A DNA stretch of 64,000 nucleotides from Eledone cirrhosa (GCA_964016885.1 OZ024743.1:250294001-250358000); one strand, 5' to 3'. Positions 2,627 to 64,000 are shown, counted from the first letter of the stretch. Numbers and translations: made by a program. The notes: a model not told the origin generated them from the letters alone.

Positions 2627-2807
2627 AATTGTTTCTACTTTAGGCACACGGCCAGCAATTACCCATTACATTACTGGTACTTTATTTTATCGACCCCGTA
2701 AGGATGAAAGGCAAAGTCAACCTCGGAGGGATTTGAACTCATAATGGAAAAGGCCGTAACTCTTTGCGTCAAAGCATGGCGTCCGACCCTCTACCAATAC
2801 TGCCAAC
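2627..2807 (-). mobile_element. SINE family C (~190 bp, central GCCTTTCATCCTTACGGGGTCGATAAAATAAAGTACCAG domain)
   Basis: Matches many other copies in the window, e.g. 10650-10828, 34501-34694, 47247-47433, 56795-57181. Confidence 0.88.
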
Positions 2808-2945
2808 TATATATAATGTTATATTATATATATTATGTTATATTATATATATTATATTATATTATATTATATATATTATGTTATATTATATATATATATT
2901 ATATTATATACATTATATTATATATATATATTATATTATATACAT

Positions 2946-2989
<44 letters not shown>

Positions 2990-3070
2990 AATCCTGCATA
3001 ATGGAGGCGAAAACAAATTATTTGCTTAAACATTTTATCTGTTCAAATAATAAATATATATATATATGTA

Positions 3071-3113
<43 letters not shown>

Positions 3114-3146
3114 TAATCATGGTTCATGAAGTTGTCTGAAGACTCA

Positions 3147-3177
<31 letters not shown>

Positions 3178-3180
3178 GTG

Positions 3181-3297
3181 TGTGAGTCTTCAGACAGAGG
3201 AGATGATGAAGGACCGCGATGAATGGAGAGATACTGTGCTGAAGAGAACCCATCCCACCCTTGCAATTAAGGAAAAGCACACTTAAAATGATGATGT
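3181..3297 (+). mobile_element. Short RTE 3'-end fragment
   Basis: Codes L-QTEEMMKDRDEWRDTVLKRTHP, typical of the RTE C-terminus, then the CCCACCCTTGCAA...AAATGATGATG tail. Confidence 0.65.
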
Positions 3298-26577: not shown

Positions 26578-26971
26578 CAAAAATCAAAATTAAATAATAC
26601 AGCATAATTTCCAAAAGATGTTTTATATTTCACATTAGAATGATGTAATTAGTATATCGTAGGTTGAATACTCACACACATAGATATGCACATACTCACA
26701 GGCACACATATACACACATATACACATTCACACAATCACATGCATGCAAACATACACATACATACACATACATACACATACACATACACATCATACAAAC
26801 ACACACACACACATGCATATATTCCCCCACACACATGCACATATCTACAGACATACAAATGTACATATACACACATAAAACAGACACACACACCTACACA
26901 CAGACATATATAAACACATGCATACATACACATACAAAGGCATATACACGTATATATACATACATCCCTCT

Positions 26972-28575
26972 TCCTTGTGAGGCAATTACAGGAAAAGTAC
27001 CTAGCTAAAAGTAAGCCACTCTACTTGGCATTTTTCGACCTTGAGAAAGCCTTTGACAGAGTTCCACGTGTTGTAATCTGGTGGGCTCTTAAAAAACTAG
27101 GAGTAGATGAATGGCTTGTGAAAGCGGTACAAGCCATGTATAGGGGAGCAGTCAGCAAAGTTAGGATTAGCAATGAGTATAGCGAGGAATTTAGCGTACA
27201 GGTTGGGGTCCACCAGGGCTCTGTTCTTATCCCCCTCCTGTTCATCATAGTCCTGCAGGCAATAACGGAGGAGTTTAAGACCGGATGCCCATGGCAACTC
27301 CTATATGCTGATAACCTCGCACTCATAACTGAATCTATGGTAGAACTAGAGAATAAATTCCAAACTTGGAAGCAGGGACTAGAAAGAAAGGGTCTCAAAG
27401 TCAACATGACAAAGACTAAGGTCCTTGTAAGTAGACGAGAAAACAGAACCCAGATCCCCTCAGGGAAATGGCCTTGCTCAGTATGTAGGAAAGGTGTAGG
27501 TAGGAACTCCATTCTCTGCCCCAAATGCAAACAATGGGTACACAAGAGATGTAGCGGGATCTCAGGAAGCTTAATTAAGAATGTAGGCTTCACATGCAGC
27601 AGCTGTGCTGAGACAGCAAGCAGCAAACAGCCACAGGAAACAAGTACCACCAATCTCTGGGAGGGCTCTATAGAAACAGTAGACAGCTTCTGCTACCTAG
27701 GGGACCGAATTAGCAGCGGAGGTGGGTGTTCAGAAAGTACAATAACTACGGTAAGAACGGGATGGAAGAAGTTTAGGGAACTACTACCACTGCTAGCTGC
27801 AAAAGGCTTCTCCCTCAGAATGAAAGGCAGACTGTATGATGTGTGTATCCGAACAGCAATGTTGCATGGTAGTGAGACCTGGGCGCTGAAGGTGGAAGAC
27901 TTACGTAGATTAGAGAGAAACGAAGCCTGCATGCTCCGATGTATGTGTAACAGTAATATACGTGAACGACAAAGCATAAATGAATTGAGAGAGAGACTGA
28001 GCATAAGAGGAATCAAATACTGTGTGCAGGAGAGGTGGTTGCGCTGGTATGGACATGTGATGCGTATGAAGGATGACACAGCTGCATAAAAAGGTGCAGA
28101 GCACTAGAAGTTGATGGAAACCGCGGAGTGGGGAGACCCAAGATGACCTGGGATGAGGTGATAAAAGCCGACCTTACTCAATTACACCTCTCAAAGGCAA
28201 TGACACACAACCATGACTTCTGGTGTCGCGCAGTAATACAGAGTACCCGACCTCCTATGGGTACAAGCTGAAGCATATAGACAATATGCCCCCACACCCC
28301 CCACCGCAAGGTGGTCGTGGAGGTGCCACGGCAAAAAAGCACCCAGCCCACACTGTAAAGTGGATGTGTAGGCACCACGAAAAAGCACCCAGCACTCACT
28401 GTAAATGAGGTTGGTGTTAGGAAGGGCATCCAGCTGTAGAAATCAAGCCAAATCAGTTCCTGTATGAGCAAGGCATGGTCAGCCGACCAGACACTGCCCA
28501 CAACAGGACAACCCGTCTAACCCATGCTCGCGTGGCAGAACGGACGTAAAACGGTGATGATGATGATGATGATGA
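26972..28575 (+). mobile_element. 5'-truncated RTE LINE (RT + PHD-like finger + C-terminus + 3' UTR + (GAT)n)
   Basis: ORF 26977-28089 has DLEKAFDRVPR, GVHQGSVL, YADN (catalytic YADD altered), [38 protein letters not shown]. There is a frameshift near 28080 relative to the copy at 50067-50516. Confidence 0.95.
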
Positions 28576-49804: not shown

Positions 49805-51863
49805 CATCATCATCATCATCATCATCACCGTTTTACGTCCGTTCTTCCATGCTAGCATGGGTTAGATGGCTTGTCCTGTTGTGGGCAGTGTCTGGTCGGC
49901 TGACCATGCCTTACTCATACAGGAACTGATTTTGGCTTGATTTCTACAGCTGGATGCCCTTCCTAACACCAACCTCATTTACAGTGAGTGCTGGGTGCTT
50001 TTTTGCCGAGGCACCTCCATGACCACTTTGCAGTGGGAGGGTGTTGGGGCATATTGTCTATATGCTTCAGCTTGTACCCATGGGAGGTCGGGTACTCTGT
50101 ATTACTGCGTGACGCCAGAGGTCATGGTCGTGTGTCATCGCCTTTGAGAGGTATAATTGGGTAAGCTCGGCTTTTATCACGTCATCCCAGGTCTTCTTGG
50201 GTCTCCCCACTCCGCGGTTCCCATTGACTTCTAGCGCTCTGCACCTTTTTATGCAGCTGTCATCCTTCATACGCATCACATGTCCATACCAACGCAACCG
50301 CCTCTCCTGCACACAGCATTTGATTCCTCTTATGCTCAGTCTTTCTCTCAATTCATTTATGCTTTGCCGTTCACGTATATTACTATTACACATCCATCGG
50401 AGCATGCAGGCTTCGTTTCTTTCTAATCTACGTAAGTCTTCCACCTTCAGCGCCCAGGTCTCACTACCATGTAACATTGTTGTTCGGATACACGCATCAT
50501 ACAATCTGCCTTTCATTTTGAGGGAGAAGCCTTTTGCAGCTAGCAGTGGCAGTATCTCCCTGAACTTCTTCCATCCTGTTCTTACCCTAGTTATTGTACT
50601 TTCTGAACACCCACCTCCGCTGCTAATTCAGTCACCTAGGTAGCAGAAGCTGTCTACTGTTTCTACAGAGCCCTCCCAGAGATTGGTGGTACTTGTTTCC
50701 TATGGCTGTTTGCTGCTTGCTGTCCCACCACAGCTGCTACATGTGAAGCCTACATTCTTAATTAAGCTTCCTGAGATCCCGCTACATCTCTTGTGAACCC
50801 ATTGTTTGCATTTGGGACAGAGAATGGAGTTCCTACCTACACCTTTCCTACATACTGAGCAAGGCCATTTCCCTGAGGGGATCTGGGTTCTGTTTTCTCG
50901 TCTACTTACACGGACCTTAGTCTTTGTCATGTTGACTTTGAGACCCTTTCTTTCTAGTCCTTGCTTCCAAGTTTGGAATTTCTTCTCTAGTTCTACCATA
51001 GATTCAGCTATAAGTGCAAGATCACCTGCATACAGGAGTTCCCATGGGCATCCGGTCTTAAACTCCTCCATTATTGCCTGCAGGACTATAATGAACAGGA
51101 GAGGGCTAAGAACAGAGCCCTGGTGGACACCAACCTGTACGCTAAATTCCTCGCTATACTCATTGCTAATCCTAACTTTGCTGACTGCTACCCTATACAT
51201 GGCTTGTACAGCTTTCACAAGCCATTCATCTACTCCTAATTTTTCTAAGAGCCCACCAGATTATAGCACGTGGAACTCTGTCAAAGGCTTTCTCGAGATC
51301 GACGAATGCCAGGTAGAGTGGCTTACTTTTAGCTAGGTACTTTTCCTGTAACTGCTTCACAAAGAAGAGAGCATCAGTGGTGCCTCTTCCTGGTACAAAC
51401 CCAAATTGCATCTCATCTAGTTTCACCCGGTCCCTAATCAACTGTGCTATAACTCTTTCTGTTACTTTCATGACCTGGTCCATCAGCTTTATACCTCTAT
51501 AGTTTCCTCTATCTAGTGCATCACCTTTACCTTTGTAGCAGTTGACGATGATGCTACTGCACCAATCTTTTGGTATTACCTGGTTAACAATACGTGTGGT
51601 TTTAGTGTGACCTACAGACCCAGATGCCTTCAGCATCTCGGCAGCTATACCCGATGGACCGGTTGCCTTCCCCATCTTCATATCTTTGATTGCCTTACTT
51701 ACTACGCTGCTGCTGACTAGTACTGTGGCCCTCTATAGGGTCTACTTGGGGTAGGGTCTCTTCTTCCCATGCATTCTCCTCATTTAGTAATCTATCATAA
51801 TGGCTCTTCCATGCATCTTTCTTCTCAGCGCTTGTGAGGGCAAGCTCACCTTCATCATTCTGG
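49805..51863 (-). mobile_element. 5'-truncated, frameshifted RTE LINE, same family as 26972-28575
   Basis: ORF pieces 51226-51681, 50700-51218 and 50067-50516: KATGPSGI, NYRGIKL, QFGFVPGRGTTDA, YAGD (catalytic motif altered), PHD-like finger, RRLRWYGHV, then the 3' UTR and (GAT)n. Confidence 0.95.
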
Positions 51864-53486: not shown

Positions 53487-53547
<61 letters not shown>

Positions 53548-53558
53548 GTTGTTTACTT

Positions 53559-54155
53559 GAGAGAAGGCTGCGTTGGTATGGACACGTGATGCGCATGAAA
53601 GTCGATAGCTGTATTACAAAGTGCAGGGCAATAAAGATAGACGGTAGCCACGGAATAGGCAGACCTAGAAAAACATGGGATGAGCTGATAAACTCCGACC
53701 TCACACACTTACACCTCTCCAAGACAATGTCACTGGACCGTGACCTTTGGCGGTACTCAGTAACAGAGAAGACCCGCCTTGCCAGTAGGCATCTCTAACA
53801 AACTACACCCCGTCCCGCCACCCCCCCCACCCCATCCACACCACCCCGTTCTATGTAAAGTTATGTTGGTGCCGCGCCATCCAGGCCGAAACAAATGAGA
53901 TCGTGTAGGTGTCACGACAAAAAAAAACACACAGTCCACGCTGTAATGTGGCCGTGTAGGCAACACGGTAAAAACCTCCCAGACCCACACTGTAAATGTG
54001 GTTGGTGTTAGGAAGGGCATCCAACTGTAGAAAACCTGCCAGACAGTCCTATGCGAGCAAGACAATCACTCTTGCCTCAAGTGGGACTACCCCCGTCCAA
54101 ACCCATGCAAGCGTGGAACACGGACGTTAAACGTTGATGATGATGATGATGATGA
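53559..54155 (+). mobile_element. RTE 3' fragment of a related subfamily
   Basis: [42 protein letters not shown], 3' UTR repeats, GTTAGGAAGGGCATCC, (GAT)n. Confidence 0.88.
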
Positions 54156-54189: not shown

Positions 54190-54305
54190 AATATACACAT
54201 TGGTTTGTGTGTTCTGCAAGCCTTTTGAAGGTTGTAGTAATATTTGTAGGGTATAAAAAATAGGGTCACTAGTCTTGGTAGTGCTTTGGTGCATATATAC
54301 GTATA

Positions 54306-54357
<52 letters not shown>

Positions 54358-55038
54358 TAATATATATATATTTACGTATTTATTTATTTATATACGTTTA
54401 TATATTATTTATTTATTTATTTGTATACACGCATACACACACACACATATTTATATGCGTGTGGTTTTGTATACCTATGTTAAGTGTTTTTGCGTATGCT
54501 TGTGTATGTACGTATTTGTTTGCGTGTATGTATTTATTTATTTATATTACTTCTGTATTGTATTTATTTACTTTTTTCTTAACTCTGTAGCGGAGATTCA
54601 TTCGGTCACCTAGTTAAAATTTTAGTCTACGACTTCTGCTATACCATTTACGTGGTTTTGTCTTTGCGTGCTATTGTTCTCCACGCTACACATATGACGT
54701 ATTATCTTCGTTTTTTTCATTCATTGCCAGAGAACGTCTCTATGAACCACCTAAGAGAACATTAGTCTACGACCTCTTTTATACCATAAACGTGATTCTG
54801 TCTTTACGCGTAATTGTTTTTCACCGCTCCTATTAATGACGTATCTTATTCGTTTTTTCCCGTTCTTTGCCAGCGAACGTTACCACGAAGCAAAGTATCG
54901 TCTTCCTGTCTTCCTCCGGTTGCAACGTTTTTTTGAAATATCCAATTCTGCGTTTACAGATTGACTTTGTTAGTTTCAGAAGATCCCGTTAAGGGTGAAA
55001 GCAGCGATTCTTTGCTTAAACTTTAATCTGTTATTTTA

Positions 55039-55045
<7 letters not shown>
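54190..55045 (+). mobile_element. Penelope-like 3' UTR / pseudo-LTR segment ending in a hammerhead fold
   Basis: 54370-54916 is a close direct repeat of 56015-56546, which lies downstream of the GIY-YIG ORF. It has an internal ~140-bp dimer and ends at (TA)n. Confidence 0.75.
54972..55022 (+). ncRNA. Type I hammerhead ribozyme fold (core variant CAGAAGA)
   Basis: Stem I AGTTT/AAACT, core CAGAAGA (consensus CUGANGA), stem II CCC/GGG, GAAA, stem III AGCA/TGCT, NUH = CUU with predicted cleavage after 55017. Confidence 0.7.
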
Positions 55046-55126
<81 letters not shown>

Positions 55127-55233
55127 ATAATAATAAAATTGAAGACTAAAATCCAAAGAGGGCTCGATAAGGAAAATATATATCAAATATATAAGAACCG
55201 TAGAGCAAATATTTATTAAAATAACAGATATAA

Positions 55234-55764
55234 GCTGAAAGTAATTGTAGGAATCGGGCTGATTGCCCCCTATCCGGGAAATGCCTCTCTAGTAACATTG
55301 TCTACAAATGTAAGGTTGTAACACCCACGTCCTGTAGGGCCTACATAGGGTTAACCGCCAATAGTTTCAAGCAGCGTCTTTACATGCATACCCATTCTTT
55401 TCGTTACCCTCTAAGAAGGAATATGACGTCACTTTCAGCTTATATCTGGAGTCTAAAAGACAACCACACCCAATATAAGTTACACTGGGAGATCCTAGCT
55501 AGGGCTAGATCGTATAACGGAAATAAAAGACCATGTGACCTCTGCGCCGCTGAGGCCCTGGAAATACTCTACGCTACAGACCACATCTTAAACAAAAAAT
55601 CTGAGGCAATTTCGGCTTGTAAACATAAATTGCACAAAACTTTCCTGTATTACAGCCCACGTTATACCCTAACGGATAGCACGATCTATACGTGGATATT
55701 TTACGTCTTGATGTGGGAGCTAAGTATATGTTTTGTTTATTCCTTTACGTATTTGCATAGGTAA
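55234..55764 (+). CDS. Penelope-like element GIY-YIG endonuclease domain (5'-truncated, stop-free)
   Basis: In-frame upstream extension of ORF 55384-55764: NCRNRADCPLSGKCLSSNIVYKCKV...AYIGLTANSFKQRLYMHTHSF...TSLSAYIWSLK...WEILARARSY...CDLCAAE...ILNKKSE...CKH. Confidence 0.88.
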   Translation, partial: AESNCRNRADCPLSGKCLSSNIVYKCKVVTPTSCRAYIGLTANSFKQRLYMHTHSFRYPLRRNMTSLSAYIWSLKDNHTQYKLHWEILARARSYNGNKRPCDLCAAEALEILYATDHILNKKSEAISACKHKLHKTFLYYSPRYTLTDSTIYTWIFYVLMWELSICFVYSFTYLHR

Positions 55765-56546
55765 GTATATATTACCCGTATGTTTTGTGAAGGTATGTAT
55801 ACCTTCTCGTACGTATATTTGACTGTTATAGCGTATAATTTTTACATATTCTGGTATTTAGGGTTTGGCTATGTGTATACGGGAGTTTTGCGTCCGCGTG
55901 AGTGTGCAGGTTCGTACGTATGGTGGGTGTGTGTATATGTGTACTTCTTGTTTTAGTTGACTTACGTCTCCGAACATTCGTGTATTTATATGTAGGTATG
56001 CGTGTGCGCTTGTTATATACGTATTTATTTACTTATATACGTTTATATAAGTATTTATTTATTTGTACACAAGCATACACACACACACATATTTATATGT
56101 GCGTGGTTTTGTATACCCATGGTAAGGTTTTGCGTATGCTTGTGTATGTACGTATCTGTTTGCGTGTATGTATTTATTTGTTCCTATTACTTCTGTATTG
56201 TATTTATTTACTTTGTTCTTAACTCTGTAGCGGAGATTCATTTGGTCTCCTAGTTAGAATTTTAGTCTACGATTTCTGCTATACCATTTACGTGGTTTTG
56301 TCTTTGCGTGCTATTGTTCTCCACGCTCCACATATGACTTATTATCTTCGTTTTTTCGTTCATTGCCAGAGAACGTCTCTATGCACCACCTAAGAGAACA
56401 TTAGTCTACAACCTCTTTTATACCATAAACGTGGTTTTGTCTTTGCGCGTAATTGTTTTTCACCGCTCCTATTAATGACGTATCTTATTCGTTTTTCCCC
56501 GTTCTTTGCCAGCGAACGTTTCCACGAACCAAAGTATCGTCTTCCT
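55765..56546 (+). mobile_element. 3' UTR / pseudo-LTR of the Penelope-like element, cut off before the hammerhead
   Basis: Homology with 54370-54916 ends at CTTCCTGTCTTCCTC (56545). Confidence 0.72.
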
Positions 56547-57344
56547 GTCTTCCTCATGTATGGATTCACACGCACGCACACACATATATATACACCAACA
56601 CACACATATTTGTGTATTGTAACAGTGACTTGATTGGCTATCAGTCCAGTTGTGAATTATCTGGTCAGAAACCACCAACTCCCCCAACTGAGTGCAGTCA
56701 GTCAAGGAGTAAGGGCAACATTTCGTGGGAGAAAAGGGAGGGGAGGGGGAAATAAACTCAGTGCCATTTCCACTTTCATTATTTCTCGGTGAATAGGGCA
56801 GTGAATTGGCAGTATCGGTAGAGGGTCGGACGTCATGATTTGACGCATAGAGTTACGGCCCTTGCCATTCTGGGTTCAAATCCCGCAGAGGTTAACTTTG
56901 CCTTTCATCCTGACGGGGTCGATAAAATAAAAGTACCAGTAATGCACTGGGTAATTGCTGGCCTTGTGCCAAAAAGTAGAAACAATTATTTCTCGGTGAA
57001 TTGGCAGTATCGGTAGAGGGTTGGACGCCATGTTTTCTAGCATAGTTACGTCCCTTTACAGTCTGAGTTCAAATCCCGCCGAGGTTAACTTTGCCTTTCA
57101 TCCTTACGGGGTCGATAAAATAAAGTACCAGTAATGTACTGGGTAATTTGCTGGCCTTGTGCCAAAAGTAGAAACAATTATTTCTCTTTGTTTGTTTATG
57201 CATTATTAGTTGCATTATTTTCCTTGTTTTTGTTATTGTTGTTGTTGTTGGTGTTTGGGTTTTTTCATGTCTATCATTTTTGCTCTCTCTCTTCAGTGCA
57301 TGGCATGGTTGACATTTATCAATTTTTAAAGTAAAACTATTATC

Positions 57345-58256: not shown

Positions 58257-58795
58257 GATGATGATGTATATGTATATATATATATACATATAGATATTTA
58301 CATATGTATATGTATATATATATATACATATGTATATGTATATATATACATATATATATATGTATATATATGTATATGTATATATATATACATATATATA
58401 TATACATATGTATATATATATATATACATATGTATATGTATATATATATATACATATATATACATATATATATGTATCTATATATATATATATATACACA
58501 CACATATGTATATATTCTCAGTAAATTGAAGGACCTGTATCACGTTGCCATGGTTACCAATATTCTACAACCAAATGATTTCACGTGTATGCATGTCTCC
58601 ATGGTGAGTAGATACAGAAGCAGAACAATAACTGAATAATTCAAATTCATCTGGGATAAGAGTAGGGGTCCAAGTGTAGGAAAGTCGCACAATATATTGT
58701 TATATTAATAGATAAATCCTTTCATTGATCGATATGTAGGGAATGACCGGATTAAGAGACCATTTCATCAAACAACAAGTCTACCATTTACTTAC

Positions 58796-59435
58796 TTAAC
58801 CTTTTTATAACTATATTTCTAATGAAAGACACTGCCTATAGTTTTAAAAATATTTTTGAAAATAATCAAGAAATTGGAATGATTTAGCAAAATAACTAAA
58901 TTTCTCATTATTTATCCTGTGTTTTGAACATAAGATAACAAAGGTTCTTATATAAAATTATGATGGAAGTCTTTTAGATAAATATATATTCTTTAACCCT
59001 TTCATTATCACATTTCTAATGAATGACATTACCTATGATTTTTCAAATATTTTGAAAAAAAATCAAGAATTTGGAGGGATATATTAGTATTACAAACTTT
59101 CTCATTATTTATCTAGTCTTTGGAACATAGCTTACAAAGGTTTCTACATAAAATTATGATGGAAAGCTTTTAGATAAATATAAGCACCTCAAAAATTTCA
59201 TTACCATATTTAACATGAAAGACACTACATATGATTTTTCAAATAATTTTGAATACCATCAAGAATTTGGAGAGATTTAGTAATATGACTAATTTTCTCA
59301 TTATTTATCTGGAATTTGCAACATTAAATTTCTTGCATAAAAATATGAAAGAGTTTTAGATACATATAAATACTTTAAATCTTTCAACACTATATTTCTA
59401 ATGAATGTCACTACGTATAGCTTTCAAATAATTTC
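58796..59435 (+). repeat. About 3.3 tandem copies of the ~197-bp TTAA-end unit
   Basis: Unit starts at about 58796, 58993, 59190 and 59375. Shared GGTTCTTACATAAAATTATGATGGAAG...TTTAGATAAATAT-like block. Confidence 0.85.
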
Positions 59436-61929: not shown

Positions 61930-62116
61930 TGCTGTAAAATGGAGGGGTAGAGAGGGCCCTTGAGTCTAGTAAGACATCCTCTCTAGTGCTGGTGGCACAA
62001 ATAAAAGCACCCAGTCCATGCTGTAAAGTGGCGCTGGTGTTAGGAAGGGCATCCAACCAGTGTATCAATGCCAAAACGCTTATCAGCACAGCAACAAATA
62101 GGAACAACAACAAAAT
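61930..62116 (+). mobile_element. 5' leader of the RTE LINE at 62117
   Basis: Contains AAAAGCACCCAGTCCATGCTGTAAAGTGG...GTTAGGAAGGGCATCC and is homologous to 60450-60570 (-). Confidence 0.75.
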
Positions 62117-64000
62117 ATGAAGACGTCGCATCTCAGAGTTGCAACACTTAATGTTGGCTCTCTCAGAAGTAGATCTGCTGAAATAGCAGAGATGCTGGAG
62201 AGAAGGCAGGTGGATGTGTGCTGCGTGCAAGAGGTGAGATGGAGAGGTGCCTCTGCGAGACTAGTCGTAGGCAAACGTCTTAGCTATAAGCTATTCTGGG
62301 TAGGTAAGGATGATGGGTTAGGGGGAGTAGGCATTTTCCTGGCTGAGAAATGGATCAATAAGACAATAGAGGTAGTTCGAGTTAGTAATCGAATAATTAA
62401 GCTTAGATTAGTTGTAGGTAGGAGACTACTGACAATCATCTCGGCCTATGCTCCCCAAGCAGGCCTAGGCAAAGATGAGAAAGACTGCTTTTATGAGCAA
62501 CTTTTGCAAACAACCGCAATGACAGAGGACGGAGACATCGTTATGCTAGCAGGAGACTTCAATGTTCATGTTGGACAGCTCCAGGATGGTTACACTGGGG
62601 TACATGGTGGGCACAGTTACAGTTCAAGAAATGAAGAAGGAGTGAGACTTCTTGAATTTTGTGATGCAGGAACATTGACTATTTGCAACACAAACTTCCA
62701 GAAACCTGCCAATCACCTAATAACCTACAAATCTGGTGAGCACATAAGCCAGATTGACTTCTTACTAGTTAGGCAGCGGGACAGGCAGATAGTGTCTAAT
62801 ACCAAGGCATACCCTGGGGAAGAATGTACCCCACAGCATAGGTTAGTTGTTAGTGATATCTCAGTAAGCAAGAGATGGAATGAGACATATAGGAAGGTGT
62901 GGAGAAGAAAGGTCTGGAAGCTAAAAGACCTTTCACTAAAATACAAATTTAGGAAAGCCCTTCAAGATGTATATGACGAAAAAGAAGACGATTTAGAGAC
63001 GTATGACATAGATAATAACTGGAATTTCTTACGTGACAACTTGCTGCAGGCTACTAATGAAACTTGTGGCTGGAGCAGATCTCCAACCAGACAGAGAGTG
63101 ACCTGGTGGTGGAACAGCACAGTAGATAAGGCTATTAGAGACAAAAGACTAGCATGGAAGGATTGGAAAAAGTATGGGAGTAGGGAAGAATATACAGCCA
63201 AGAGAGAAGCTAGACGTCAGGTGTACTTAGCACGCAGGGAGGTAGAGAGTAGGAGGTTTGCCAATGTTCTGCGACGGGAAGATCAGAGGCGTGCGGTGTT
63301 CCACATTGCAAGGCAGTGTGTCAATGCAAATCAGGATGTTGTTGGAGATAAATGTGTCCGAGATGATGCCGGTGTACTTAGTGTCACAAATGATCAGAAA
63401 AAGGAGGCCTGGAAATGTCATTATGAGAGACTGATGAATGTGGAGAACAAATGGGAGAGAGAGAAATTACCCCCAGTAGATCCGACAGAGGGACCAGCTA
63501 TTGAGATTGACGAATATAGGGTCCAAGAGGCGATTAGGGAAATGAAAAATGGTAAGGCTGCCGGACCATCGGGAATAGTTGCTGAGATGCTGAAGGCATC
63601 AGGGGACGTGGGCACTAAACTGGTTGCACACATCATCAATCAGGCTATATATGGTGGTTTCATACCCAAAGACTGGTGCAGCAGTATTCTCATAAATTGC
63701 TACAAAGGTAAAGGGGATGCTCTGGAGAGGAGCAATTATAGGGGTATAAAACTGATAGATCAGGTTATGAAAGTGGCAGAAAGGATTTTAGCACAACTAA
63801 TTAGAGAAAGGGTCAAACTAGATGAGATGCAGTTTGGTTTTGTGCCTGGGAAGAGTACAACAGATGCCCTCTTCTTGGTGAGACAATTGCAAGAGAGGTT
63901 CTTAGAGAAGAATAAGCCACTATACTTAGCCTTTGTTGACCTAGAGAAGGCCTTTGATAGGGTACCCAGATCTGTCATCTGGTGGTCCTTAAGGAAGCTA
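62117..64000 (+). CDS. RTE-clade LINE ORF (APE endonuclease + N-terminal part of RT), open to the window end
   Basis: MKTSHLRVATLNVGSL...VCCVQEVRW...SAYAPQ...LAGDFNVHVG...SQIDFLL...TPQHRL...TWWWN...KAAGPSGI...NYRGIKL...QFGFVPGKSTTDA...FVDLEKAFDRVPR. 628 codons with no stop seen. Confidence 0.95.
   Translation, partial: MKTSHLRVATLNVGSLRSRSAEIAEMLERRQVDVCCVQEVRWRGASARLVVGKRLSYKLFWVGKDDGLGGVGIFLAEKWINKTIEVVRVSNRIIKLRLVVGRRLLTIISAYAPQAGLGKDEKDCFYEQLLQTTAMTEDGDIVMLAGDFNVHVGQLQDGYTGVHGGHSYSSRNEEGVRLLEFCDAGTLTICNTNFQKPANHLITYKSGEHISQIDFLLVRQRDRQIVSNTKAYPGEECTPQHRLVVSDISVSKRWNETYRKVWRRKVWKLKDLSLKYKFRKALQDVYDEKEDDLETYDIDNNWNFLRDNLLQATNETCGWSRSPTRQRVTWWWNSTVDKAIRDKRLAWKDWKKYGSREEYTAKREARRQVYLARREVESRRFANVLRREDQRRAVFHIARQCVNANQDVVGDKCVRDDAGVLSVTNDQKKEAWKCHYERLMNVENKWEREKLPPVDPTEGPAIEIDEYRVQEAIREMKNGKAAGPSGIVAEMLKASGDVGTKLVAHIINQAIYGGFIPKDWCSSILINCYKGKGDALERSNYRGIKLIDQVMKVAERILAQLIRERVKLDEMQFGFVPGKSTTDALFLVRQLQERFLEKNKPLYLAFVDLEKAFDRVPRSVIWWSLRKL

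What the first reader, a model, noticed from the sequence alone, without database searches (positions are those of the whole stretch)
54190..56546. Penelope-like GIY-YIG element carrying a well-formed type I hammerhead ribozyme, in a tandem plus inverted-junction arrangement across a (TA)n tract
Seen in sequence: a pseudo-LTR-like segment (54190-55045) ends in a complete hammerhead fold at 54972-55022 (stem I AGTTT/AAACT, CAGAAGA, stem II CCC-GTTAA-GGG, GAAA, stem III AGCA/TGCT, CUU cleavage triplet). It is followed by (TA)n, a short inverted copy of the element end (ATATTTATTAAAATAACAGAT at 55209-55229 is the reverse complement of 55026-55046), a stop-free GIY-YIG domain (55234-55764) and a second copy of the same UTR. 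Established knowledge: Penelope-like elements encode RT + GIY-YIG, form tandem and inverted partial copies, and often carry hammerheads in their pseudo-LTRs. Inference: this is a fairly young ribozyme-bearing family. Its stem III is a real hairpin, not the minimal palindromic one, so it could cleave as a monomer. The U4-to-A core change either killed this copy or is a family-wide variant. The ORF track misses both the ribozyme and the N-terminal half of the nuclease.
Basis: partly seen in the sequence, partly recalled or inferred. Interest (0 to 1): 0.8.

Follow-up and report, generated by a model that had tools for sequence, protein, structure and literature searches.

The report
Jumping gene's altered, uncut hammerhead ribozyme
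This is debris of a very abundant Penelope-type jumping gene whose self-cutting RNA motif carries one unusual core letter in nearly all of its tens of thousands of copies; the copy ends suggest the RNA is likely copied into DNA capped and uncut, so the motif is likely a throttled ribozyme, untested in the lab.

Summary
The locus is two truncated copies of a Hydra-type Penelope-like retroelement, meeting tail-to-tail in (TA)n. The family has at least 39,000 copies in this 3.0-Gb genome.

The U4A core change is family-wide: 19,559 exact copies have A, 89 T, 117 C/G. Older subfamilies share it, and another organism's relative mostly has C there. Between subfamilies the commonest letter changes at N7, loops and flanks, and at none of 36 stem/core positions. 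There is no covariation within the family.

Copy ends act as a fossil record. 3' ends fall at two fixed sites 29 and about 114 nt past the predicted cut. About 11% of 5' ends stop exactly at the hammerhead's first base, mostly with an extra G, which likely reflects a cap. Ends at the predicted cut are not enriched.

So the integrated templates were uncleaved and likely capped, and cutting would remove the cap. Best reading: an attenuated ribozyme that insertion does not need. No RNA or cleavage data exist here.

The scan earlier noted ordinary minimal Penelope hammerheads in two other genomes; a look-up by this sequence found nothing. Verdict: new variant of a known kind.

The parts
54381..55046 (+). 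Copy A: 5'-truncated 3' UTR/pseudo-LTR (unit 2676-3259) plus positions +1 to +75; its 3' end is the commonest family end
   Evidence: blastn against the natural unit in L041, 93.8% and 100%; 3'-end census
54956..54964 (+). 5' arm of a predicted 9-bp distal extension of stem I (pairs with 55023-55031); present only in read-through RNA
   Evidence: MFE fold; 93.9% of cells paired in 44 distinct copies, no covariation, and this arm was part of the selection pattern
54970..54976 (+). Initiator-like TTAGTTT (TCAGTTT in older subfamilies); 54972 = +1, the inferred transcription start and first base of stem I
   Evidence: 5'-end peak with extra G; the Inr label is recalled
54972..55022 (+). Type I hammerhead-shaped motif with A at core position 4 (54978), U10.1-U11.1, CUU triplet, predicted cut after 55017
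   Evidence: genome counts
55047..55122 (.). (TA)n target microsatellite between the 3' end of copy A and the 3' end of the inverted tail
55125..55229 (-). Inverted tail of copy B (unit +55 to +160); its 3' end is the second family end
   Evidence: 97% over 106 nt
55230..55240 (.). About 11 nt of filler at the head-to-head junction
55241..55679 (+). 5'-truncated ORF end: CxCx5C linker, GIY-YIG nuclease with CxxC and CxH motifs; 1-nt frameshift near 55657, family stop at 55677-55679
55680..56555 (+). Copy B 3' UTR (to unit 3205), ending 54 nt before the hammerhead
54622..54880 (+). Internal duplication of about 130 nt in the 3' UTR (about 78% alike), also at 56256-56531

Best explanation
The locus is two dead, truncated copies of a Hydra-type Penelope-like retroelement whose hammerhead has a family-wide A at core position 4 and is likely a throttled, slow or conditional ribozyme that insertion does not need. 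Shown: the 3,259-nt unit with one RT + GIY-YIG ORF; A4 in about 99% of copies and in older subfamilies; 3' ends at +75 and about +160; a sharp 5'-end peak at the motif's first base with an extra G; no peak at the predicted cut. Inferred: a promoter in the pseudo-LTR starts a capped mRNA at the first base of stem I. The element's RT starts copying at two internal sites downstream of the motif, primed in nicked (TA)n DNA, and runs through the uncut motif. From the first pseudo-LTR this gives 75-160-nt mini-copies ending at the cap; from the next pseudo-LTR of a read-through RNA it gives longer copies. Cutting after 55017 would remove the first 46 nt with the cap, or detach the RT start sites from an upstream unit. 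Lineages with a weakened core (A4 here, mostly C4 in another organism) would therefore be favoured, while the fold and the catalytic bases are kept for a residual, possibly protein-assisted cut.
For: Position 4 counts: A 19,559, T 89, C/G 117. A in 25 of 25 copies of a sister subfamily, 98 of the first 100 of 195 N7=U copies, and 27 of 29 older copies picked by an anchor outside the 51-nt motif.

In that set the commonest letter differs from the young copy at 0 of 36 stem/core positions, 3 of 15 loop/N7 positions and 28 of 140 upstream positions.

Run X17 (organism N) reads C at position 4 in depth 21,567 of 26,998. Its other listed changes inside the motif are at N7, loop 2, loop 3, a U-G-compatible stem I change and a minor (7%) CpG-type change in stem II.

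5' ends: 2,985 copies have a non-T base before +1 against 19,659 with T. 82 of the first 100 rows are true junctions and 58 of those 82 have an extra G (hand count; p 3e-17 against 26%). Genome-wide, 1,641 of the 2,985 have the G. Control one base in: 1,079 hits, 49 of 100 rows junctions, 10 of 49 with G.

Cut site: 778 hits, 34 of 100 rows junctions, about 0.7% of 39,151. About 25 copies end 3' there.

Precedent: in the anole PLE, hammerhead mutants do not affect insertion in vitro, unprocessed RNA is the template, cleavage needs the protein, and RT starts at two internal sites (PMC11167929). A viroid U4C variant is weaker in vitro but sufficient in vivo (PMC3088659).
Against: No cleavage assay and no RNA data. 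CUGA-turn mutants other than the C-G swap had low activity in a mutational scan (PMC9901934), so residual activity may be negligible.

The hammerhead secondary structure is predicted at only 0.02-0.16%, and natural U4 copies score similarly low. No known active hammerhead was folded as a control.

There is no covariation above shuffles, so the conservation could serve a promoter or a protein-binding site. Integrated copies show only what was copied, not what was cut and lost. That A4 was selected rather than tolerated rests on two non-U states. X17 also has T in 14% of depth (59 contigs against 67 for C), its coverage at that base is low, and 12 difference rows were hidden. The extra G as cap is an analogy to L1 (PMC9341517).
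Confidence: 0.5

Rival explanations
1. The hammerhead is catalytically dead in this lineage. The fold and sequence persist only as a promoter or an RNA handle for the element's protein that sets the RT start sites.
For: U4 is lost family-wide, and mostly replaced by C in another organism. There are no cut-site ends. The motif coincides with the inferred start site. A4 pairs with U11.1 in an alternative helix that hides GAAA (P 0.11-0.56 against 0.00-0.05 in natural U4 copies). Naiads proliferate without hammerheads (PMC8557442). Penelope has an internal promoter just downstream of its start (PMC2377424).
Against: All other core bases and all stems are unchanged across subfamilies about 20% apart, while N7 and both loops change. 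That is the pattern of a hammerhead. The A4 alternative helix is not predicted in the older A4 copies (mostly 0.00-0.01, at most 0.10).
Confidence: 0.3
2. The A4 hammerhead is an efficient ribozyme in vivo, as monomer, dimer or with protein help. Cut RNAs are degraded or shut out of the RNP, so only uncut survivors appear as copies.
For: Core and stems are conserved. There is a 4-bp stem III, a 9-bp distal extension of stem I and a predicted stem-III dimer helix (cofold -24.5 kcal/mol). U10.1-U11.1 is tolerated.
Against: The 3' cleavage product keeps both RT start sites, yet 5' ends at the cut are at background (about 0.7%). At least 39,000 copies came from uncut RNA. Metazoan PLE hammerheads are slow in vitro (PMC4209133).
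Confidence: 0.15
3. U4A is a private mutation that killed this one copy of a canonical ribozyme family.
For: 1,023 genome hits have a canonical CTGANGA core with the same kind of stem II.
Against: 27 of the first 30 of those hits are head-to-head inversion junctions that create CTGAAGA artificially. True T4 copies number at most 89 against 19,559.
Confidence: 0.01
4. The hammerhead shape is coincidental or a relic with no constraint on it.
For: No Rfam hit, folding z -0.84, no covariation.
Against: It lies at the clade-typical place and keeps the clade's features. 0 of 36 stem/core positions changed against 28 of 140 upstream.
Confidence: 0.04

Closest known systems
Hydra clade of C-terminal-EN Penelope-like elements (Craig et al. 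2021, PMC8557442), including Hydra-1_Obim
   Same: RW[KR] and DKT motifs, CxCx5C linker, CxxC and CxH around the conserved E and N, no CxxC inside the GIY-YIG core, (TA)n targets, type I hammerhead after the ORF. 14 of their 26 Hydra hammerhead rows share U10.1-U11.1.
   Different: All 26 rows have a CUGA core and a stem III starting A-C with a loop of at most 3 nt. Here the core is CAGA, 15.2-16.2 is G-C and the loop is 9 nt and not palindromic. The unit is 3.26 kb against generally under 3 kb. Hydra-1_Obim has a different hammerhead and is another family. Their descriptor centred on canonical cores, so a CAGA family could have been missed.
Poseidon element PAc of Anolis (Frangieh et al. 2024, PMC11167929)
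   Same: Two internal RT start sites define an optional tail; AT-rich targets; uncut RNA is the template; no RNA-seq ends at the cut site.
   Different: Another clade, with a canonical core overlapping the start codon and a tail given as 30-40 bp. Here the motif lies in a 202-nt 5' UTR, the tail is about 85 nt, and the evidence is genomic, from tens of thousands of insertions.
Minimal and variant PLE hammerheads (Cervera and de la Pena 2014, PMC4209133)
   Same: Hammerhead in the pseudo-LTR, an extra base after A9, huge numbers of solo copies, low predicted activity.
   Different: Those have a minimal or palindromic helix III and work as dimers, and the core variant reported there is U3-A8. 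A position-4 change was not seen in the parts read.
Viroid U4C hammerhead variant (as cited in PMC3088659)
   Same: A natural non-U base at position 4.
   Different: A viroid ribozyme needed for replication, with C rather than A. The original paper could not be read.

Membership tests
Penelope-like element (EN+) | Single ORF with RT and C-terminal GIY-YIG | tested here: met
   L041 ORF of 645 codons to a break, RDD motif and YIG; 567 homologues at E<=1e-30 among 8,000 scored, one Pfam-annotated GIY-YIG
Penelope-like element (EN+) | Partial tandems (pseudo-LTRs), inverted 5'-truncated copies, optional tail | tested here: met
   Tandem in L041; inverted 5' copies in most of the 12 long loci; 3' ends at +75 or about +160 in 107 of 110 records, not fully deduplicated
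Hydra clade | RWK motif and DKT in place of DKG | tested here: met
   RWR and DKT in L041; RW[KR] in 110 and DK[TS] in 118 of the 120 top homologues, DKG in 0
Hydra clade | CxCX5C linker, CxxC and CxH flanking E and N, no CCHH | tested here: met
Hydra clade | (TA)n insertion preference | tested here: met
Hydra clade | Canonical hammerhead core | tested here: not met
   A at position 4 against CTGA in 26 of 26 rows
Hydra clade | Generally under 3 kb | tested here: not met
   unit of 3,259 nt
Hydra clade | Phylogenetic placement of the RT with reference Hydra elements | not tested
   no tree was built; the assignment rests on motifs
Type I hammerhead ribozyme | Three stems around the core, stems II and III closed | tested here: met
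   all 12 pairs possible in the window copy; 92.7% of cells paired
Type I hammerhead ribozyme | Core C3 U4 G5 A6 N7 G8 A9, G12 A13 A14, A15.1-U16.1, H17 | tested here: not met
   all present except U4
Type I hammerhead ribozyme | Covariation in stems | tested here: inconclusive
   none above shuffles within the family, where the stems are invariant; across families 15.2-16.2 is G-C here and C-G in 26 Hydra rows
Type I hammerhead ribozyme | Rfam hammerhead model match | tested here: not met
Type I hammerhead ribozyme | Self-cleavage after H17 | not testable with these tools
   the indirect genomic test shows no excess of ends at the site

The most novel reading that the evidence does not exclude
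A retroelement lineage has tuned down its own ribozyme by independent non-U states at hammerhead position 4 (A in this genome, C in another organism). It did so because the ribozyme is the very 5' end of its capped mRNA and works as a self-decapping timer. The distal stem I helix, present only in read-through RNA, would make cutting depend on position. The genome's insertions record capped, uncut templates and so give an in vivo answer to what PLE hammerheads are for.
Probability: 0.25. Interest if true: 0.8.

Novelty: new variant of a known kind. Interest (0 to 1): 0.58.

Why it matters
The role of hammerheads in Penelope-like elements is stated to be unclear (PMC8557442). The usual proposal is that they cut tandem precursors to unit length (PMC4209133). 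Here tens of thousands of natural insertions show that the templates were uncut and place the likely capped start at the ribozyme's first base. This matches the one in vitro study (PMC11167929) in a distant clade.

The family also offers a natural allele series at one core base (A, C, U) on a nearly constant scaffold, which can be assayed directly.

Practical point: descriptor searches that demand CUGA would miss this family. They would instead pick up several hundred inversion junctions that fake a canonical core.

Tried and rejected
Rfam scans gave only low-complexity hits. Pfam gave nothing for the fragment or the long ORF.

A canonical-core sister family was suspected and rejected: 27 of 30 loci are inversion junctions. 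L178 suggested an older U4 subfamily and this was rejected: 98 of 100 rows have A.

Majority comparisons were partly circular, because the search patterns fixed the core. They were repeated with an outside anchor. That anchor includes the distal helix arm, so conservation of that arm is not independently shown by that set. The identical 30 nt in an 82%-alike X4 contig were not used, because contig ends share such words by construction.

No RNA holder was listed. Depth profiles are not copy numbers and were not counted. One search failed to deduplicate loci, so its counts are of records.

Papers not held: Lunse et al. on PLE hammerhead variants, Ambros and Flores 1998, one guessed id. Figure 5 of PMC3088659 could not be seen. 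These may already list a position-4 variant. Searches that found no report of this variant or of capped starts at the PLE hammerhead, judged from listings and passages. Only part 2 of 59 and term hits of the Craig supplement were seen.

Full report
1. Observation. I call its first base, 54972, +1. A natural full unit in L041 runs 3,259 nt from one motif to the next, with the ATG at +203. Against that unit the window holds four pieces. Copy A (54381-55046) is the 3' UTR end plus +1 to +75. A (TA)n tract follows. Then comes an inverted piece equal to +55 to +160 (55125-55229), about 11 nt of filler, and copy B (55241-56555), which is the ORF end plus UTR and stops 54 nt short of the motif. A and B are 93% identical over 536 nt. 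The 3' ends of A and of the inverted piece both face the (TA)n tract, so the simplest reading is two insertions into one microsatellite (inference). The window's nuclease frame has a 1-nt frameshift just before the family stop. Rfam and Pfam do not recognise the motif or the protein.

2. The element. The genome is 3.0 Gb in 1,796 contigs. That its repeats look cephalopod-like is my recall, not a test. The ORF has RWR, DKT, an RDD RT motif, a CxCx5C linker, YIG, and CxxC/CxH around the conserved E and N. These are the features given for the Hydra clade (PMC8557442 section 11). The same motifs occur in 109-118 of the 120 best homologues. No tree was built. None of the 12 long loci fetched had an unbroken ORF. 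A 20-nt anchor just 3' of the predicted cut has 39,151 exact hits.

3. Position 4. With the other 28 bases fixed, A occurs 19,559 times, T 89 times and C/G 117 times. T is therefore at mutation background and A is the family state. A looser canonical-core pattern gave 1,023 hits, but 27 of the first 30 are head-to-head junctions that create CTGAAGA artificially. Older subfamilies also carry A: 25 of 25, 98 of the first 100 of 195, and 27 of 29 chosen by an anchor outside the motif. In that last set the commonest letter differs from the young copy at 0 of 36 stem/core positions, 3 of 15 loop/N7 positions (N7 split 17 A, 11 T), 4 of 15 positions at +61 to +75, and 28 of 140 upstream positions. 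The stems do not covary above shuffles; they are simply unchanged. All 26 Hydra hammerhead rows in the Craig supplement have CTGA and a stem III starting A-C. Here 15.2-16.2 is G-C, a compensatory swap relative to the clade. A second Hydra-type family in this genome, 35-50% identical in the nuclease, has a canonical core; those six loci were found with a canonical pattern, so its family state is untested. In other organisms, run X12 and the four runs list no change at position 4, and X1 shows T in about 1%. Run X17 (organism N) reads C in 21,567 and T in 3,764 of depth 26,998. Its other listed changes inside the motif are at N7, loop 2, loop 3, one wobble-compatible stem I site and a 7% CpG-type change in stem II. 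Twelve rows were hidden and coverage at that base is low.

4. Copy ends. 3' ends fall at +69 to +75 (68 records) or +157 to +162 (39 records) of 110 records, which were not fully deduplicated. Both sites end in TAT and run into (TA)n. This is the two-start-site tail described for the anole element (PMC11167929). For 5' ends, 19,659 copies have the family T before +1 and 2,985 have another base. In the first 100 printed rows of the latter I counted 18 variants that run on upstream and 82 junctions. Of the 82, 58 have G, 15 A and 9 C on the sense strand (p 3e-17 against an assumed 26%; 47 of 71 after dropping 11 rows where the partner could supply the base). My note after one search gives these letters partly on the printed strand. 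Genome-wide 1,641 have the G, and 97 of the first 100 are junctions. About 11% of copies thus stop exactly at +1. One base further in there are 1,079 hits, 49 of 100 rows are junctions and 10 of 49 have G. Upstream I counted about 16 breaks in 55 nt among 100 rows. An untemplated G at a full-length 5' end is read as a copied cap in L1 (PMC9341517), and +1 lies in an initiator-like word (recalled). At the predicted cut, 778 copies have a non-T base. 34 of the first 100 rows are junctions, 11 of them through homology with a partner's +1. That gives about 0.5-0.7% of 39,151, the same as the roughly 30 breaks per 100 copies spread over the 46-nt motif. 3' ends at the cut number about 21-23 of the first 100 of 111 hits. 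All row counts are by hand, from the first rows on the largest contigs.

5. Folding. The hammerhead secondary structure is a minor conformer (P 0.0002-0.0016). Natural U4 copies give at most 0.0034. The model ignores tertiary contacts and I had no active control. In the young family A4 pairs with U11.1 in a helix that hides GAAA (0.11-0.56 against 0.00-0.05 for U4 copies); older A4 copies mostly lack this (at most 0.10). A register-shifted hairpin competes with stem III. A 9-bp helix between -16..-8 and +52..+60 extends stem I in read-through RNA only.

6. Mechanism. Shown: anatomy, allele counts and end distributions. Inferred: a capped mRNA starts at +1, RT starts at +75 or +160 in nicked (TA)n DNA, and the motif is copied uncut. 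Cutting would remove the cap, or separate a unit from its RT start sites. I commit to an attenuated, possibly protein-assisted ribozyme that insertion does not need (0.5). The rivals are a dead fold kept as promoter or protein handle (0.3) and an efficient ribozyme hidden by survivor bias (0.15). For attenuation: catalytic bases and stems are kept while position 4 is non-U in two ways, and a viroid U4C variant is weak but sufficient (PMC3088659). Against: CUGA mutants were of low activity in a scan (PMC9901934), there is no covariation, and there are no RNA data.

7. Papers seen. PMC4209133 parts 1-2 of 4. PMC11167929 parts 1-2 of 4. PMC8557442 passages, section 11, supplement term hits and part 2 of 59. 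bioRxiv 10.64898/2026.07.22.740005 part 1 of 5. Passages only: PMC3088659, PMC9901934, PMC2377424, PMC9341517, PMC6765202, PMC6431247, PMC11014351. Lunse et al. and Ambros and Flores were not held.

8. Verdict. A PLE with a hammerhead is known, and so is the Hydra clade, including one octopus family with a different hammerhead. I found no report of a family-wide position-4 variant or of capped starts at the ribozyme's first base, but a key paper on PLE hammerhead variants was unavailable. New variant of a known kind; interest 0.58.

Noticed in passing
G000, loci L053-L081 and one search list: Several hundred head-to-head junctions are centred on the core (GGGATCTT-CTG-AAGATCCC), as if the cDNA folds back a few bases from the RNA's 5' end. 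They fake a canonical CUGA core.
   Followed up: partly
L060, L175-L177, L179, L180: A second Hydra-type family (nuclease 35-50% identical) with a canonical core and a short A-C...G-T stem III; a natural control family.
   Followed up: partly
L050, L125, L126, L129, L148: A cluster of 5' ends at -47 in a subfamily with a different stem I bulge, often preceded by (GT)n; possibly a short non-autonomous derivative or a second start site.
   Followed up: no
window 54622-54880 and 56256-56531: A duplication of about 130 nt, 78% alike, inside the 3' UTR. Each unit has a TGACGTA word and one has TATAAAAG on the minus strand; possibly promoter elements (labels recalled).
   Followed up: no
window 50067-51732 (-), 53547-53798 (+), 26914-28086 (+), 62102-64000 (+): Fragments of a different, LINE-type RT element, with a 633-aa open frame at the window end; they look RTE-like (recalled, not tested).
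   Followed up: no
window 56851-56931 and 57044-57124: Two 91%-identical copies of a short interspersed repeat with a tRNA-like box (recalled as SINE-like); the same repeat flanks many copies elsewhere.
   Followed up: no
window 58736-59434: Three to four diverged tandem units of about 196 nt.
   Followed up: no
L044, L052: Both inverted pseudo-LTR copies carry T at position 4, so a rare U4 source element or a shared copying error did produce insertions.
   Followed up: partly
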